Positions 39,001 to 63,000 of a stretch of DNA of 64,000 nt are shown here, piece by piece; positions within the stretch are counted from its first letter, which is position 1, and each line of letters opens with the position of its first letter. The position numbers are program-made. Source of the DNA: Ruditapes philippinarum (taxonomy: Eukaryota). The DNA lies in contig NW_026856698.1 in assembly GCF_026571515.1 (NCBI RefSeq), forward strand, positions 310,001-374,000, read 5' to 3'.

Positions 39001-42000
39001 ATGGAAACTGTAATTAGAACTCACAAACTATCATTTTAAATTGTTTCAAAACCAAATGATTTTTTTATTTTGCGTACTAGATTATATTGACAAAAATTCA
39101 GTAAATGTTTCACTTTTTACCATGATACGTCCTGTAATATGAAAATATGTTTATTTCTTTGTTGAAATTAAGACCTGTTGAAGCAATGCAGAAGAGATCC
39201 AAGTTAATTTGTTTTGATCTAAGAATACACCAAAAGAACATTTCATACTTAATTTCAAGAAAGCAAAGCTAAAATGTTCCAAACTATTAACATGCTTTGA
39301 ATTAGTACACACAATAGGCATGTTATGATACATGAAGTTCATTTCATGGATAAAATAGTAAATTTAGAAATTATGCTGTCTTTGGATATTATAAGAGCTG
39401 TTTCTTATATTGGTCTTTTCCTCTTATTTTCTTGAAGCATTACATGTACCACACAAGCAACACTTTAATTATTACTCTTTATAGTTCATTAATTTACCCC
39501 AGTAAAATTCATTTAAAGTTCTAATATGTTATAAATGACTAGCATGTTAAGCCTCGCTCAATACAGCATTTATCAGCATGGCCTGATAAAAATGATATAT
39601 CAAAGTACAGAAGCATGTTATTCTCTATTTATCAGCGGGTGGCTATTTAGGGTAATGCAGCTTTAAAATATCAAAGTTATATGAGTGTTACGTTAAATAA
39701 TGCTTAAATCATATTTCGCTTAATAAGTTTAGATCGGTGATAATTACCATTGATTAATTATAATTCTTTTCAAAATTGGTTTCTTTCACAGTAACTATCA
39801 AACTAATATGAGGCACCAGTTTGAACAAAACAAACATGTTAAACAGTAAAAGTCCCTTAATTTCTGATCTTTTGCCTATGCTAACTTTGCATGTTGTTCA
39901 GTACAAATAATGTCATTAGTTGTTGTGTTTCACCATATATAATAAGGAGAATAGTTATATTCATTTTGATTTGGTTCTTCTTTTTCCCCTAAATACTTAT
40001 AGAGTTCAGTCAGAATATACTCTATCTATTTCTTTCAGACGATTGAAGTCAGGAGACTGTACAAATATGCATCATACTCTTGTAAACCGTCTGTCAGTTG
40101 TAATGTTCATCATCCCTAAAACGCCATCAATCAAGGACTATTTGTAATTTAAAATATGTCATATTATCAAATATATGGTTGGCCTTATTGTGCCCTCAAT
40201 CTAAATATGTTCGTTAAGTGCGTATCAGATGCTTCATTTCACTAATCTGTATGTTTTCCAATAAAACATTTCTCTGCAATTATTTGTATTTAGAGTGATA
40301 AGGAGGGTTTTTGTCAGTATCAGTGATCTTTGTTACATCAATTACGTGTAGCGAGACAGTAAATATTGACAATCGAACCAAAGTCGATGAAATCGTTTAC
40401 CACCAGCACTATTACCGTCTTATCATTATAAGTAGCATCAAAATCACCAGATGATGTTTAATGATCGTTTCTGTAAAATATTCAAACATGTACTCTCATA
40501 ATTCAGATAAAAATATCTATCAAAACTCAATGCATATACGAATTGAAAAAAAATAGTTCTTTCTGTATTTTTAAGTTAACAAGGACAATGATCTTGTACA
40601 TGTAAAGAGGTTGCCTACTTGATATATATTTAATCATATTTAATGATATTTATTACAAAAGTAAGTGATATTATCAATTATAAACTGTACATATGAATGC
40701 CGTTGTAGAACTGTCAATGAGTTTTATCCTATAAAGGATGTGTATTGTTTCAATTTATTTTTACATTGTTATCTAGCAATCATGAACATACTTTGCTGTA
40801 AAATTTGCTTTATTTTTCATCATTATTTTTTTGTTTAAAAGAGTTAAGTATGTATTGAGCATATACCGCCAAATCGAAAATGAATGACGTTTTATTGTAT
40901 TACTATGGTGCTAGAAATAATGACTTATTGCATATCATGTAATGACACCGGAAAAGCTTGAATGACCCTTATTAGCCAAATAAGAAACTCAGGCATGGAA
41001 ATAAGAAATTAACCCAATTAAAAAATGGGTAGGATAATATGAGGTCACTATACATTGTTGCAATACTGAATTTTCATTGGAGGAGCCTTGTCCAATACAA
41101 GTTTTGCACCTGCGTACAAATATTATGTATAATGACGGCTTTATTCACACCACTAACTTCTTGACATTCGTATAATTTTGATACTTGGAGTACAATAAGG
41201 ATGTGATGTTATTTTTAATGGACTCTGAAAATAAAAATGACGGGGTACAATAGTGATTTGATATGGACTTTTGGTCTCAGAAAAATGAAAACGAGGCTAG
41301 ATGGAGATTAAAGTGATTTGATATGGAAGTTCTGGACTGGCAAAATGAAACTGTGGCTTTATTAATAAGATTGGATCCAACATTTATGGCAGATCACATG
41401 GTGCAAGAGCTAGAAGCTTATTAGTTACAGTAAAAAATAAAAAGTGTGAAATAATACAATATATATAACTGTGCAAAAATGAATAGTTTATCTGAAATAG
41501 GTAAAAGAAAATTAGAAATTATTTCTAAAATAGACAATGCATCAAAGAGAGTCATTGTTTTACATCGACAGTATTCAGGATAATCTTTAACCGTAGTCGA
41601 AATGTTTTTTATATCATTATATCATTTTTTTTGTAAAAGAGATAAATGTTTCCGTAAGAGAAATCCTATTAGAATAACAAGTTTAACAATCCCTATCATC
41701 AACACCTCGTTTTGTCGTTAGGAATTTATGTAATTTTAGACTAATATTTGACATTAATTGTGATATATCTCGACCAGAGAATGAGCTTGTTGGCAGTTAT
41801 GTATGGACTGTAGCGTTGCACATATTTATTGTGAGAATTCAAGATCATTTGTTTAGATTGTTTCTATTTAATTACAGACATTGCAGTTTAACATTGACAA
41901 TAACGGGATCAAAGTTAGTTGAATTATTGGCCATTTTAAGAAATAGAGAAGCTGTCATTTCCTGTAAATAAAAACAATGCATTGTCTGTTAGAAAGGTAC

Positions 42001-60000: not shown

Positions 60001-63000
60001 TCCCGACCATCAACAGCTCGTTTTGTCGTTAGGAATTTATCTAATTTTAGACTAATATTTGACATTAATTGTGATATATCTCGACCAGAGAATGAGCTTC
60101 TTGGCAGTTATGTATGGACTGTAGCGTTGCACATATTTATTTGAGAAGATTTATGATCATTTGTCTAGATTTGCCCTGTTCAATTACACGAACTGCAATC
60201 GAACAATACCACTCAATTGAATCAACGTTAGATGAATAATAGCTATTTTAGGCAATAGAGAAGATGGTGTTTCGAACCGATTAGGAATACACTCTAATCC
60301 CTTTCAAGCAAATCAATGAACGTGATAAAGGTTTAGGTAATGCATATTTTGAAATACTTCGTAAAATTAATTACAAATCAAAATTAAACTAATGAGGCAA
60401 TACATTACAATTGTATATATAAATAGCAAAATCAACTAAAAGCTGTCAGTTTGTGTTAAATACATCATTAACATACAAGACAAGTTTATTTCACAGAAAA
60501 ATGAAATATAATTATTTGTATATATAAATCGATCTGATACCAACATGTGGTTGTAGGGAAGAGGTTATATTTAAATGATAGAGGCTCCGAGATTTCAAAA
60601 ACTGTTTACAAGCTAGATTATGGATTAATTATTATTGATTATATATTACCTGATCCACGTTCTCTGGCATCGGCTTAAACATAATTCAACATTCAAATTA
60701 TGAAATTAAGAATTAAGTATCATAAGCCGATGTAAGTCGTATACTGCGGAAAAGGTTTTAGCGATTAACGTCCTTGGAAACTAAGATGATAAATACTTCA
60801 TAATCTCATAACTGGGAACTCTGTTTACATAAATAAATGAATAAATAAATAAAACTATGTAAGTTATCATACAAAAGTATCTTCAAATGCGATAAAAATT
60901 GCGAAGGTAATTAGTTGTATGAGATAACGTCCTATTTGTTAACATAGCCTGCCGCTTACTATAATCTCATGAATATGGAAAGAGGTGAGAAGGTGAAATA
61001 AATGCCTATTATAGTATGCATCTGTCTCCATGTTAACAAAATAAGGAAGATATTTATAAATATGGAATGATATTTCATTACGCCTGCAGAGAAATGAAAA
61101 GTCTCAGATGAGACATGCTCGTAATTGGAAAAATTGGAAAATACGGCAAATATTTTCAGGACACACGTGTGTCTAATATCAATGTGGTGAATCGGTCAAG
61201 GGAACATTCTTCTTTGAAGTTAAGAATACATGAGAATGATCAAGCTTTGCATAGAAAATTGTTTAACAGTACATGTATCTACAAATACCGGTTCATTTAA
61301 AATATATTGATACAAGCGAGGTTTTACGCACGCGTAAAAAGGCTGCGCAGGAATGGTCAGCTGTGCAGTGCATACTTTAAAAAGAACCCAAAAAATTGCT
61401 ATGTAGACGAGTTGTTGAAATTAAAGCATAACGACAAGAAAATTTCATTTCGCCATACTAGTAGTACTCGTTTTATACTGTGACATGACGGGAACCCTTT
61501 GGTCAATGTCGTATTGTGCCAGGAATCCGACACCATGTAAACAGAGCTGACACTTTGACAATATTAATTTTATCCCAATTAAACAATATCTTAACTTTTA
61601 ATAAGCAAGTGACAAACAATAAAACTCAAATTTGAGCATAAACATAGTATACATGTATAAGTCATTAAAGGGATTATCTAATTTTTAGATTTTTCTGATT
61701 TTTCAAACACGAGCAGAACAATTCATAGCATATGTTACAGGAACAAACCACATCATTTAGAAGTTCTGGATCCGCAACAGACGGAGACATGGTAATAGGT
61801 TCCTGTACTCCATCTTCAGTTTTTTTTTGTATCTAAACTGCAAAGACGGTGGCAAATGCTCTACGCCTATTGTTGCATTTCGCCATATATACAGCTTTCT
61901 ACACATCGCAGACAATGCAAAGCAAAACTGTTTTCAGTACGAGGCAAATATCAAGGAGATACAGACTTCAATGCCTTAGAACATCGAAAGGCATTCTATG
62001 ATGTACATTCAGTGCTACCGTTGAAGAGACCAGCAACAAAGCATGCACAATCCTGATTTTGCGATGATGCGAGAAAGACTTTTCTCTCGTGTCTTTTAAA
62101 ATTTGATATGTGTATGCATTTAAATCCTTCTTTTCTTTCCTTTTACATAAAATGAACTTGTTTTATAACATCCCGATAAAAAGGAATCTGATAAGATAAT
62201 GTTATGCTGCTCTTGAGTTAACATATTGTATAAGTGGTAAACAGATATACCATTGCATATAACAATAACGTGTCTACATTTCTAATACCAGTTGTCTGGT
62301 CTTGAAGCAGGTTTCCAAGCACCTTCATGAAATCGGACCTTTTACATTTGAGCATTGACCCATCTTCAGAGAACATACTTGTTGGAACCGTTGTGTTTTC
62401 ATATGCAAATACCCGTTGGTTTTAAAAGTTGACAGCTAGTAGTCGCTGAAACGTAACTTCAATGGATATTGTTTTTAAACGCTGTTAAGTTTTAGTTCTT
62501 TTCTTAGGCTTTTTCTTTATGAGGATCTTATTTCTTGTCATTGGACTATAGAAGCTTTTCGAATCTGGGTCAGTCCAATCGGGTTTTACAATTTATCCTC
62601 CGAAATAATTTGTTCATGAGTTTTGCACATTAATCAAAGTAATCTAACATGCTTTTCTCCGTTTCTTCTGTAGCTTGGATGCAGGTTGCAACATTGATTA
62701 GTCTTTGTAGTGTTTTTCTTGTATTAAACTGGTCTAATAAATTAGCATCGAATGACGTAACCATTTTTGCTACGTTTTTGTTGTACAAACTGCCTTCTGA
62801 AAACGTGTTTCATCGTCAAACATTCTTTTACTTGAATAAACACTTTGTTTAAACATAAATGTTTGGTACAATTGTCTGAAAAATTGCACTCTTGAAAAAT
62901 TGCATTTGAAACTAGTTTCTCTAAAAAAATGTTATTAATCAGATTTCAAAAAAAAAAAAAAAAAAAATTATGGATAACTTTGAATGAACAGCTTAGCCGG

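What the first reader, a model, noticed from the sequence alone, without database searches (positions are those of the whole stretch)
40171..60141. Duplicated A-B cassette: near-perfect cores separated by poorly alignable spacers
Seen: A core 40171-40262 equals 58668-58759 (92/92). B core 41706-41830 versus 60017-60141 differs at 2 of 125 positions. Order and orientation are the same and the spacers are ~1.45 and ~1.26 kb. Identity falls just outside the cores, and the spacers share little recognisable sequence by eye. A neutral segmental duplication should decay evenly. Inference: strong purifying selection or gene conversion on two paired functional elements (an enhancer pair, two exons of a non-coding transcript, or structured RNAs).
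Basis: partly seen in the sequence, partly recalled or inferred. Interest (0 to 1): 0.7.

Follow-up and report, generated by a model that had tools for sequence, protein, structure and literature searches.

The report
Old non-coding duplicates with homogenised cores
Two ancient, transposon-riddled copies of a non-coding DNA segment keep two stretches of about 100 bases almost identical, most likely because the copies occasionally overwrite each other (gene conversion), which is an ordinary process and not clear evidence of a new functional element.

Summary
A 40171-40262 equals 58668-58759 (92/92) and B 41706-41830 matches 60017-60141 at 123/125. The cores sit inside longer homology blocks of about 340 and 355 bp whose shoulders are only 71-74% identical. 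The spacers share no significant similarity.

The blocks belong to a small local family: 4 A, 3 B and 2 C copies, all between 33.7 and 60.8 kb. The duplication is old. Shoulder distance is 0.18-0.30 substitutions per site, and a decayed LINE with a 7-bp target-site duplication is nested in A2.

I found no ORF, protein family, Rfam family, tRNA, stable fold, Pol III box, terminal inverted repeat or cassette target-site duplication.

The perfect A tract begins at the first base after the LINE junction and ends at an 11-bp indel. The B tract ends at a 1-bp indel. The three-copy relationship switches abruptly at the LINE site.

Best reading, at about 0.5: short-tract interlocus gene conversion between two old, linked, same-orientation duplicates. 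Purifying selection on functional non-coding elements is not excluded, at about 0.2. Genome-wide copy number, transcripts and other species could not be checked.

The parts
40062..40400 (+). A1 homology block.
   Evidence: nhmmer and profile hits; alignment and identity profile.
40401..41607 (.). Spacer 1, unique sequence with no protein family.
   Evidence: No nhmmer hit; Pfam scan of ORFs negative; shuffle test.
41608..41962 (+). B1 homology block; core 41706-41830.
41990..44593 (+). 5'-truncated LINE lying within about 80 bp of B1's right end. RT ORFs run 42042-44190 and the tail is (ATCT)n-like. The start coordinate is approximate because the 5' junction was not resolved.
   Evidence: RVT_1 E=4e-16; sequence. 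Homology to cassette 2 does not resume after it.
56519..56629 (+). Left part of A2, separated from the rest by the nested LINE. Its last 7 bases (56623-56629) are the left target-site duplication ATTATCA.
   Evidence: nhmmer 56519-56629 vs 40062-40169; sequence.
56630..58657 (-). 2028-bp 5'-truncated, decayed LINE nested in A2. The right target-site duplication is 58658-58664.
   Evidence: RVT_1 E=5.4e-8. ATTATCA occurs once in A1 at 40163-40169 and flanks the insert in cassette 2. Two in-frame stops and five frame changes, one with an internal deletion.
58658..58885 (+). Right part of A2.
58886..59909 (.). Spacer 2, unique sequence. It holds a 37-bp tandem duplication at 58875-58943.
59910..60274 (+). 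B2 homology block; core 60017-60141.
60601..60779 (+). C2 block, shared only with cassette 3.
   Evidence: nhmmer and profile hits.
50323..50556 (-). A3, a diverged A copy: 82.6% identical to A1 in the core and 70.1% in the flanks.
49410..49599 (-). C3 block downstream of A3. Cassette 3 has no B block.
38529..38766 (+). B3, a diverged B copy: 76.2% identical to B1 in the core and 66.3% in the flanks.
33699..33840 (-). A4, a fragmentary A copy.

Best explanation
Cassettes 1 and 2 are old, linked (18.5 kb apart), same-orientation copies of a non-coding multi-block unit (A-B-C) that was duplicated locally several times and has since been broken up by LINE insertions and indels. Most of the unit has diverged, the spacers beyond recognition and the block shoulders to 71-74% identity. 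The centres of the two remaining homology islands have been copied from one cassette to the other by short-tract interlocus (ectopic) gene conversion. That conversion came after the LINE entered A2, and it gives tracts of about 100 and about 125-135 bp that are 100% and 98.4% identical. Shown here: the age of the duplication, the nested LINE, the pair-specific identity, and the coincidence of tract edges with heterologies. Inferred: that conversion is the mechanism. The tapering shoulders can be read as sequence that escaped conversion progressively as the islands shrank. A modest sequence constraint or lower mutation rate in the cores may have kept them similar enough for conversion to go on.
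For: (1) The duplication is old but the cores are not. In ungapped three-way columns, JC distance between cassettes 1 and 2 is 0.18 (A) and 0.30 (B) in the flanks, against 0 and 0.016 in the cores. (2) The identity is specific to this pair. At variable sites, copies 1 and 2 agree at 16 of 16 (A core) and 28 of 30 (B core), against 25 of 44 and 16 of 36 in the flanks (p=0.0011 and 2e-5). A Sawyer-type run test on variable sites gives a run of 18 for A, reached by 74 of 20000 permutations. (3) Tract edges sit on heterologies. The A tract starts at the first base after the 2028-bp LINE (58658) and ends at an 11-bp indel, and the B tract ends at a 1-bp indel. That is 3 of 4 edges, although indels are only 14 of 115 difference events (P=0.0066). 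(4) The copy relationships switch at the LINE site. Immediately left of it A2 is the odd copy out and A1 resembles A3; immediately right of it A1 equals A2 for 100 bp. (5) Cassette 2 is not young. Its nested LINE needs 2 in-frame stops and 5 frame changes across about 1 kb. At an assumed 3-6% decay, 6.5-13 changes are expected in 217 core bases and 2 are seen (P=0.043 to 0.0002; the decay rate is my rough assumption). (6) The setting fits published conversion: same chromosome, same orientation, and tracts of tens to hundreds of bp (PMC3924818, passages). In C. elegans, fog-2 and ftr-1 are about 28% diverged yet share 93- and 102-bp identical stretches around conversion events (PMC3966223, passages). 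(7) No function-type signal was found in the cores.
Against: Two separate recent tracts are needed, because the non-homologous spacers rule out one continuous tract. Shoulder identity of 71-74% is below the roughly 80% above which conversion is said mostly to occur (PMC3924818). So the cores must already have been more similar than their surroundings. They are indeed somewhat better conserved against the third copies as well (pooled 46/216 vs 65/203 differences, p=0.015), which points to some constraint. The run test for B alone is not significant (1944 of 20000), because the two B1/B2 differences break the run. Core G+C (33-35%) is not clearly above the shoulders (25-35%), so there is no sign of GC-biased conversion. 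There is no outgroup, population sample or second species to show direction or recurrence.
Confidence: 0.5

Rival explanations
1. Purifying selection: the two cores are functional non-coding elements kept in both cassettes, such as a cis-regulatory pair, protein-binding modules or exons of an unannotated non-coding transcript. A3, A4 and B3 would then be dead copies.
For: The identity profile tapers away from the cores, as it does at constrained elements. The cores are also somewhat better conserved against the third copies: A 82.6% vs 70.1% (p=0.04), B 76.2% vs 66.3% (p=0.12), pooled p=0.015. The core distance to copy 3 (0.20 and 0.28) is close to what a clock-like tree predicts if only copy 3 decays (my calculation). 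A 27-nt motif is intact in all 4 A copies and a 37-nt motif in all 3 B copies, with 0 expected by chance.
Against: Identity at 215 of 217 sites would require nearly every base to be constrained, although there is no ORF, RNA family, stable fold or conserved splice-site pair (splice sites judged by eye). Selection gives no reason for the perfect tract to begin exactly at a LINE junction and to end at indels. My estimate of that coincidence is about 3-5% for the LINE alone. No paralogous genes accompany the cassettes.
Confidence: 0.2
2. Transposable-element modules: A and B are conserved functional segments of a mobile-element family that is common genome-wide. The two cassettes are fairly recent copies from different subfamilies that share identical modules but differ elsewhere.
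For: Several copies lie in both orientations within 27 kb. The third copies also show better-conserved cores. SINE superfamilies with highly conserved central domains and swapped heads and tails are described in molluscs (PMC4758252, passages; PMC11481361, abstract and passages). Variable internal regions between conserved segments are typical of non-autonomous elements (my knowledge).
Against: There are no terminal inverted repeats, no cassette or block target-site duplication of 7 bp or more (two low-complexity chance-level matches aside), no Pol III boxes above background, no tRNA-like head and no tail. The cores are internal to the homology blocks, not at termini. The decayed LINE nested in A2 argues against a young copy. 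All 9 blocks lie between 33.7 and 60.8 kb and none in the first 33 kb, which fits local duplication better than dispersal.
Confidence: 0.1
3. Assembly or polishing artefact: reads from similar repeat copies cross-mapped during consensus polishing and erased real differences over read-length stretches.
For: The tract lengths of about 100-135 bp are in the range of short-read lengths (my knowledge). An artefact would also stop at the LINE junction and at indels.
Against: Cross-mapping needs the cores to be highly similar already, so the contrast with 71-74% shoulders would still need explaining. Two differences survive in B. Nothing in the window itself points to misassembly at these sites.
Confidence: 0.05

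Closest known systems
Interlocus (ectopic, non-allelic) gene conversion between linked paralogs, for example C. elegans fog-2/ftr-1
   Same: Short tracts of complete identity (93-102 bp in fog-2/ftr-1) embedded in paralogs that are otherwise strongly diverged (about 28% there). The paralogs are on the same chromosome and in the same orientation, and the tract length is in the tens-to-hundreds of bp range (PMC3966223 passages; PMC3924818 passages).
   Different: Here the substrate is non-coding, with no gene attached. The surrounding identity is lower, at 71-74%. Two separate tracts lie in two homology islands split by non-homologous spacers. No population or outgroup data demonstrate an actual event.
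Duplicated conserved non-coding elements (dCNEs) near paralogous developmental genes in vertebrates
   Same: Paralogous non-coding islands that remain alignable after the surrounding sequence has diverged beyond recognition, with conservation tapering at the edges. The concept comes from search listings and abstracts only and from my own knowledge.
   Different: dCNEs are defined by cross-species conservation and by association with paralogous genes. Neither could be shown here: no species comparison was possible, and no paralogous genes lie beside the cassettes. As I recall, dCNE paralogs are usually not 100% identical.
SINE superfamilies with highly conserved central domains (CORE, V, Deu, Nin-DC, Meta, MESC, Snail)
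   Same: A central segment much better conserved than the sequence on either side. The block sizes of 340-355 bp are within the 80-500 bp SINE range. Such families are described in molluscs (PMC4758252; PMC11481361).
   Different: The blocks have no tRNA-like head, no A or B boxes above background, no tail and no target-site duplication. Their flanks are homologous though diverged, not swapped modules. The published domain consensus sequences could not be compared, because they are in figures or supplements I could not see.

Membership tests
Interlocus gene conversion tract | A stretch of significantly higher identity between two paralogs than in the rest of their alignment | tested here: met
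   Core differences 1/92 and 2/125, against 67/253 and 71/244 outside. 0 of 20000 permutations matched in each block.
Interlocus gene conversion tract | The signal persists when only variable sites are used (Sawyer/GENECONV logic), so the excess is pair-specific and not constraint shared by all copies | tested here: inconclusive
   A: a run of 18 agreeing variable sites, reached by 74 of 20000 permutations. B: a run of 12, reached by 1944 of 20000, which is not significant. Agreement in core vs flank is significant for both blocks (p=0.0011 and 2e-5). Only three sequences per block were available.
Interlocus gene conversion tract | Donor and acceptor are linked, and tract length is in the known range | tested here: met
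   The cassettes are 18.5 kb apart in the same orientation. The tracts are about 100 and 125-135 bp, against published means of roughly tens to hundreds of bp (PMC3924818).
Interlocus gene conversion tract | Direct evidence of transfer: outgroup or population data showing derived states copied between the loci | not testable with these tools
   No other genome, species or population data for this organism were available. The only open contig collection is prokaryotic.
Conserved non-coding element / duplicated CNE | Conservation across species | not testable with these tools
Conserved non-coding element / duplicated CNE | Paralogous elements lie beside paralogous genes | tested here: not met
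   tblastn of 774 ORFs of 35 aa or more against the window found no coding duplicates beside the cassettes. The only non-self hits were the DNA-level repeats and the two LINE RTs.
Structured non-coding RNA (Rfam family, tRNA, miRNA-like hairpin) | A match to a covariance model, or a fold more stable than shuffled sequence | tested here: not met
   0 Rfam hits at gathering thresholds in the window. In E-value mode on 40000-42000 there were 5 weak hits of 20 bits or less, none in a core. 0 tRNAs. Fold z-scores were -0.59, -0.22, -0.06 and +0.58.
Protein-coding exon | An open frame in all copies, codon-position bias of substitutions, and a family match | tested here: not met
   Every frame of the A core contains a stop. 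The B frame that is open in B1 and B2 has a stop in B3, and both B1/B2 differences change the residue. B variable sites fall 9/11/10 by phase. Pfam on 20 ORFs found nothing near the cut-offs. The atlas gave no usable hit and PDB gave 0.
Spliced exons of a non-coding transcript | Canonical acceptor and donor at homologous positions in both cassettes, and transcript evidence | tested here: inconclusive
   By eye no AG...GT pair brackets either core in both cassettes. The B1 donor-like GTGAGA is destroyed in B2, and the B2 acceptor-like AG reads AC in B1. No transcript data exist here.
SINE with highly conserved domain | A Pol III head (tRNA, 5S or 7SL-derived, with A and B boxes), a tail, and target-site duplications | tested here: not met
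   0 tRNA-like genes. A-box-like hits at 2 or fewer mismatches: 15 in 2.9 kb, against a 4.6 per kb background. No B-box-like site is conserved between copies. No block or cassette has a target-site duplication of 7 bp or more, apart from two low-complexity matches. The box motifs were recalled from memory.
SINE with highly conserved domain | Sequence match to a described central domain | not testable with these tools
   The domain consensus sequences are not in the main text of PMC4758252 or PMC11481361 (0 motif matches). Figures and supplements could not be seen.
DNA transposon, MITE or Helitron-type non-autonomous element | Defined termini (terminal inverted repeats or a Helitron-type hairpin end) at the edges of the conserved ends, plus target-site features | tested here: not met
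   No significant inverted repeat links the cassette ends or the block ends and there is no target-site duplication. The conserved cores are internal to the blocks, not terminal. With only 2-3 copies the true ends are poorly defined.

The most novel reading that the evidence does not exclude
The A and B cores are a pair of functional non-coding elements, for example two exons of an unannotated non-coding transcript or two protein-binding modules of a locally amplified unit. They would be under near-absolute constraint in both cassettes, with gene conversion only helping to maintain them. That would make this an invertebrate case of duplicated ultra-conserved non-coding sequence.
Probability: 0.15. 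Interest if true: 0.6.

Novelty: new member of a known kind. Interest (0 to 1): 0.25.

Why it matters
As read here, this is a clean small example of how concerted evolution survives in shrinking islands of homology after TE insertions and indels have cut up an old duplication. Its main use is as a caution: near-perfect paralogous identity is not by itself evidence of function. It would matter more if the cores turned out to be conserved across species. They would then be candidate ultra-conserved non-coding elements in an invertebrate-type genome, testable by reporter or deletion assays.

Tried and rejected
1. A whole-window BLAST self-hit with altered scoring returned only palindromes and missed the pair. 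I replaced it with chunked BLAST.

2. My first core-versus-flank comparison for A3 and B3 was distorted by unaligned tails in the multiple alignment. I redid it on the homologous spans only.

3. Structured RNA was rejected.

4. Coding exon was rejected.

5. tRNA-derived SINE was rejected on its hallmarks.

6. TIR-bounded transposon was rejected for lack of termini.

7. I considered whether the cores are young small TEs inserted independently into both cassettes. This was rejected because A3, A4 and B3 carry diverged versions of the same sequence in the same place within the blocks.

8. I considered whether B is the 5' part of the adjacent LINE. This was rejected because B2 and B3 are not followed by LINE sequence.

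9. Simple LINE insertion does not explain B1's right boundary. Homology to cassette 2 does not resume after the LINE's 3' end near 44593.

10. Profile HMMs of the A, B and C families found no further copies in the window.

11. Exact-pattern scans of the prokaryotic genome collection for the A and B motifs gave 0 hits, as expected.

12. A full-text search for four 12-13-nt core motifs gave 8 papers, all unrelated chance matches judged by their titles.

13. The atlas query with the zinc-finger exon did not reveal the host lineage.

14. G+C content gave no sign of biased conversion.

15. A weak collinear spacer match (40447-40525 vs 59281-59362) is AT-rich and only marginal, with 8 of 200 shuffles reaching its score. 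I do not count it as homology.

Not used because they do not bear on the question: structure prediction, complex prediction, and the phage, plasmid and E. coli collections.

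
Full report
**Setting.** The window has about 31% G+C (28-41% in 2-kb steps) and is clearly eukaryotic and TE-rich. It holds:
- two LINE reverse-transcriptase remnants (RVT_1 E=4e-16 at 42042-43265, plus strand; E=5.4e-8 at 58150-58500, minus strand);
- a mariner/Tc-type transposase remnant at 35221-36338 (minus strand);
- a C2H2 zinc-finger exon at 28300-29457;
- a QRICH1-domain ORF at 52763-53230.

I do not take it for human. One run of N (9480-9759) was left untouched. 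Copy number elsewhere in this genome and conservation in other species therefore stayed unchecked.

- A 40171-40262 equals 58668-58759 at 92 of 92 positions, and B 41706-41830 matches 60017-60141 at 123 of 125.
- The cores are the centres of longer homology blocks. A is 40062-40400 against 56519-56629 plus 58657-58885. B is 41608-41962 against 59910-60274 (nhmmer).
- In global alignments the sequence outside the cores is 73.5% identical for A (67 differences in 253 columns) and 70.9% for B (71 in 244). None of 20000 permutations in either block gave a window as clean as the core.
- The spacers (1207 and 1024 bp between the blocks) have no nhmmer match at E<=1. Their best local alignment is marginal and low-complexity: score 21 against 16.3 +/- 1.9, reached by 8 of 200 shuffles. 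A shoulder used as a positive control scored 72 against a shuffle maximum of 16.

**A TE insertion sets one boundary.**
- A2 is split by a 2028-bp, 5'-truncated, minus-strand LINE at 56630-58657.
- The heptamer ATTATCA occurs once in A1 (40163-40169). In cassette 2 it flanks the insert, at 56623-56629 and 58658-58664.
- The LINE's 3' end carries a short (TGAAA)-like repeat.
- Its recognisable ORF needs two in-frame stops and five frame changes, one with a large internal deletion, over about 1 kb. The insertion is old, and the cassette is older still.
- A second LINE (RT ORFs 42042-44190, (ATCT)n-like tail ending near 44593) starts within about 80 bp of B1's right end. Homology to cassette 2 does not resume behind it.

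**It is a small local family, not a unique pair.**
- Profile HMMs find four A loci: A1, the split A2, A3 at 50323-50556 (minus strand) and A4 at 33699-33840 (minus strand).
- They find three B loci: B1, B2 and B3 at 38529-38766.
- A third block, C, is shared by cassette 2 (60601-60779) and by the minus-strand cassette 3 (49410-49599, downstream of A3, with no B between).
- All nine blocks lie between 33.7 and 60.8 kb and none in the first 33 kb. This looks like repeated local duplication, not dispersal of an abundant element, but one window cannot settle that.
- No coding duplicates accompany the blocks (tblastn of 774 ORFs).

**What the blocks are not.**
- Not a known RNA: 0 Rfam matches at gathering thresholds, only five matches of 20 bits or less in E-value mode and none in a core, and 0 tRNAs.
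- Not detectably structured: fold z-scores of -0.59, -0.22, -0.06 and +0.58 for both strands of both cores.
- Not coding. Each frame of the A core has a stop. The frame open across the B core in B1 and B2 is closed in B3, and both B1/B2 differences change the residue. B variable sites fall 9/11/10 by phase; the A core's 3/10/3 rests on 16 clustered sites. Pfam on 20 ORFs over blocks and spacers gave nothing near the cut-offs. The atlas gave no usable hit and PDB sequences gave 0.
- Not a recognisable SINE, MITE or Helitron: no Pol III boxes above background, no tail, no terminal inverted repeats and no cassette target-site duplication.
- By eye I found no acceptor-donor pair bracketing a core in both cassettes. 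I built and searched no spliced model.

**Age and relationships.**
- In ungapped three-way columns, cassettes 1 and 2 are 0.18 (A) and 0.30 (B) substitutions per site apart in the flanks, but 0 and 0.016 apart in the cores.
- Distances to the third copy are 0.33-0.47 in the flanks and 0.20-0.29 in the cores.
- So the near-identity is specific to the 1-2 pair. At variable sites the pair agrees at 16 of 16 and 28 of 30 in the cores, against 25 of 44 and 16 of 36 in the flanks (p=0.0011 and 2e-5).
- The cores are also somewhat better conserved against copy 3 (pooled 46/216 vs 65/203, p=0.015). Some family-wide constraint or lower mutability is likely.

**Conversion or selection.** Three results favour conversion.
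- First, the edges. The perfect A tract (40163-40262 against 58658-58759, differing only by an AT slip) begins at the first base after the LINE junction and ends at an 11-bp indel. The B tract ends at a 1-bp indel. Three of four edges are structural heterologies, although indels are only 14 of 115 difference events (P=0.0066). A tract that cannot cross a heterology predicts this. Selection needs a coincidence, which I estimate at 3-5% for the LINE alone.
- Second, the switch. Just left of the LINE site A2 is the odd copy out and A1 resembles A3. Just right of it A1 equals A2 for 100 bp while A3 differs at 16 sites. The run of 18 agreeing variable sites is reached by 74 of 20000 permutations.
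- Third, identity at 215 of 217 sites with no coding, structural or family signal is more than constraint usually delivers.

Published work fits this reading. Conversion is favoured by linkage and the same orientation, and its mean tracts are tens to hundreds of bp (PMC3924818, passages). C. elegans fog-2 and ftr-1, about 28% diverged, share 93- and 102-bp identical stretches around conversion events (PMC3966223, passages).

Several points count against conversion.
- Two separate tracts are required.
- Shoulder identity is below the roughly 80% usually cited.
- The B run test alone is not significant (1944 of 20000).
- Core G+C is not raised.

My reading is that conversion has kept the centres of two shrinking homology islands alike, perhaps helped by mild constraint. 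The shoulders would be sequence that escaped earlier.

**Verdict.** The pattern is real and non-random, but the most economical explanation is an ordinary one. I put short-tract interlocus gene conversion at about 0.5, selection on functional non-coding elements at about 0.2, TE-module mosaicism at about 0.1 and an assembly artefact at about 0.05. The remainder is open. The tests that would decide it are a whole-genome copy census, orthologous loci in related species, population variants and transcripts, none of which could be run here. The SINE-domain consensus sequences in figures and supplements of the papers consulted could not be seen and might bear on the TE rival.

Noticed in passing
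window 10236-11592: A 1.36-kb near-perfect palindrome: the region aligns to its own reverse complement at 87-89% identity. It is possibly a foldback-type element or an inverted duplication.
   Followed up: no
window 34365-36338: A mariner/Tc-type transposase remnant on the minus strand (HTH_Tnp_Tc3_2 E=1.7e-5, below the Pfam cut-off). Beside it lie inverted arrays of a 22-bp tandem repeat at 34409-35157, whose outer arms (34365-34636 and 34965-35236) are 96% complementary. The A4 fragment lies just to its left.
   Followed up: partly
window 28300-29457: A long open exon encoding a C2H2 zinc-finger protein (zf-C2H2 E=2.2e-8). Its nearest atlas clusters are ZNF488-like. It is the only clear host-gene exon near the cassettes, about 11 kb upstream of cassette 1.
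   Followed up: partly
window 52763-53230 and 54909-55223: An ORF with a QRICH1 domain (E=1.6e-8), and a second ORF 1.7 kb downstream on the same strand. They lie between cassette 3 and cassette 2 and may be exons of one gene.
   Followed up: no
window 37614-37802 and 46820-47042: Another diverged direct repeat pair (block D, about 71-78% identity). One copy is upstream of B3 and the other lies between the LINE and cassette 3. Whether it belongs to the same ancestral unit is unclear.
   Followed up: partly
window 828-1529: A 233-aa minus-strand ORF rich in Arg, Asp and Gly repeats, in the G+C-richer first 2 kb of the window (36% G+C). It may be an exon of an RG/RD-rich protein.
   Followed up: no
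window 58875-58943: A perfect 32-nt direct duplication spaced 37 bp apart, just after the A2 block in spacer 2. It looks like a recent small tandem duplication.
   Followed up: no
window 9480-9759: A run of 280 N (assembly gap or masked stretch). It was left as it is.
   Followed up: no
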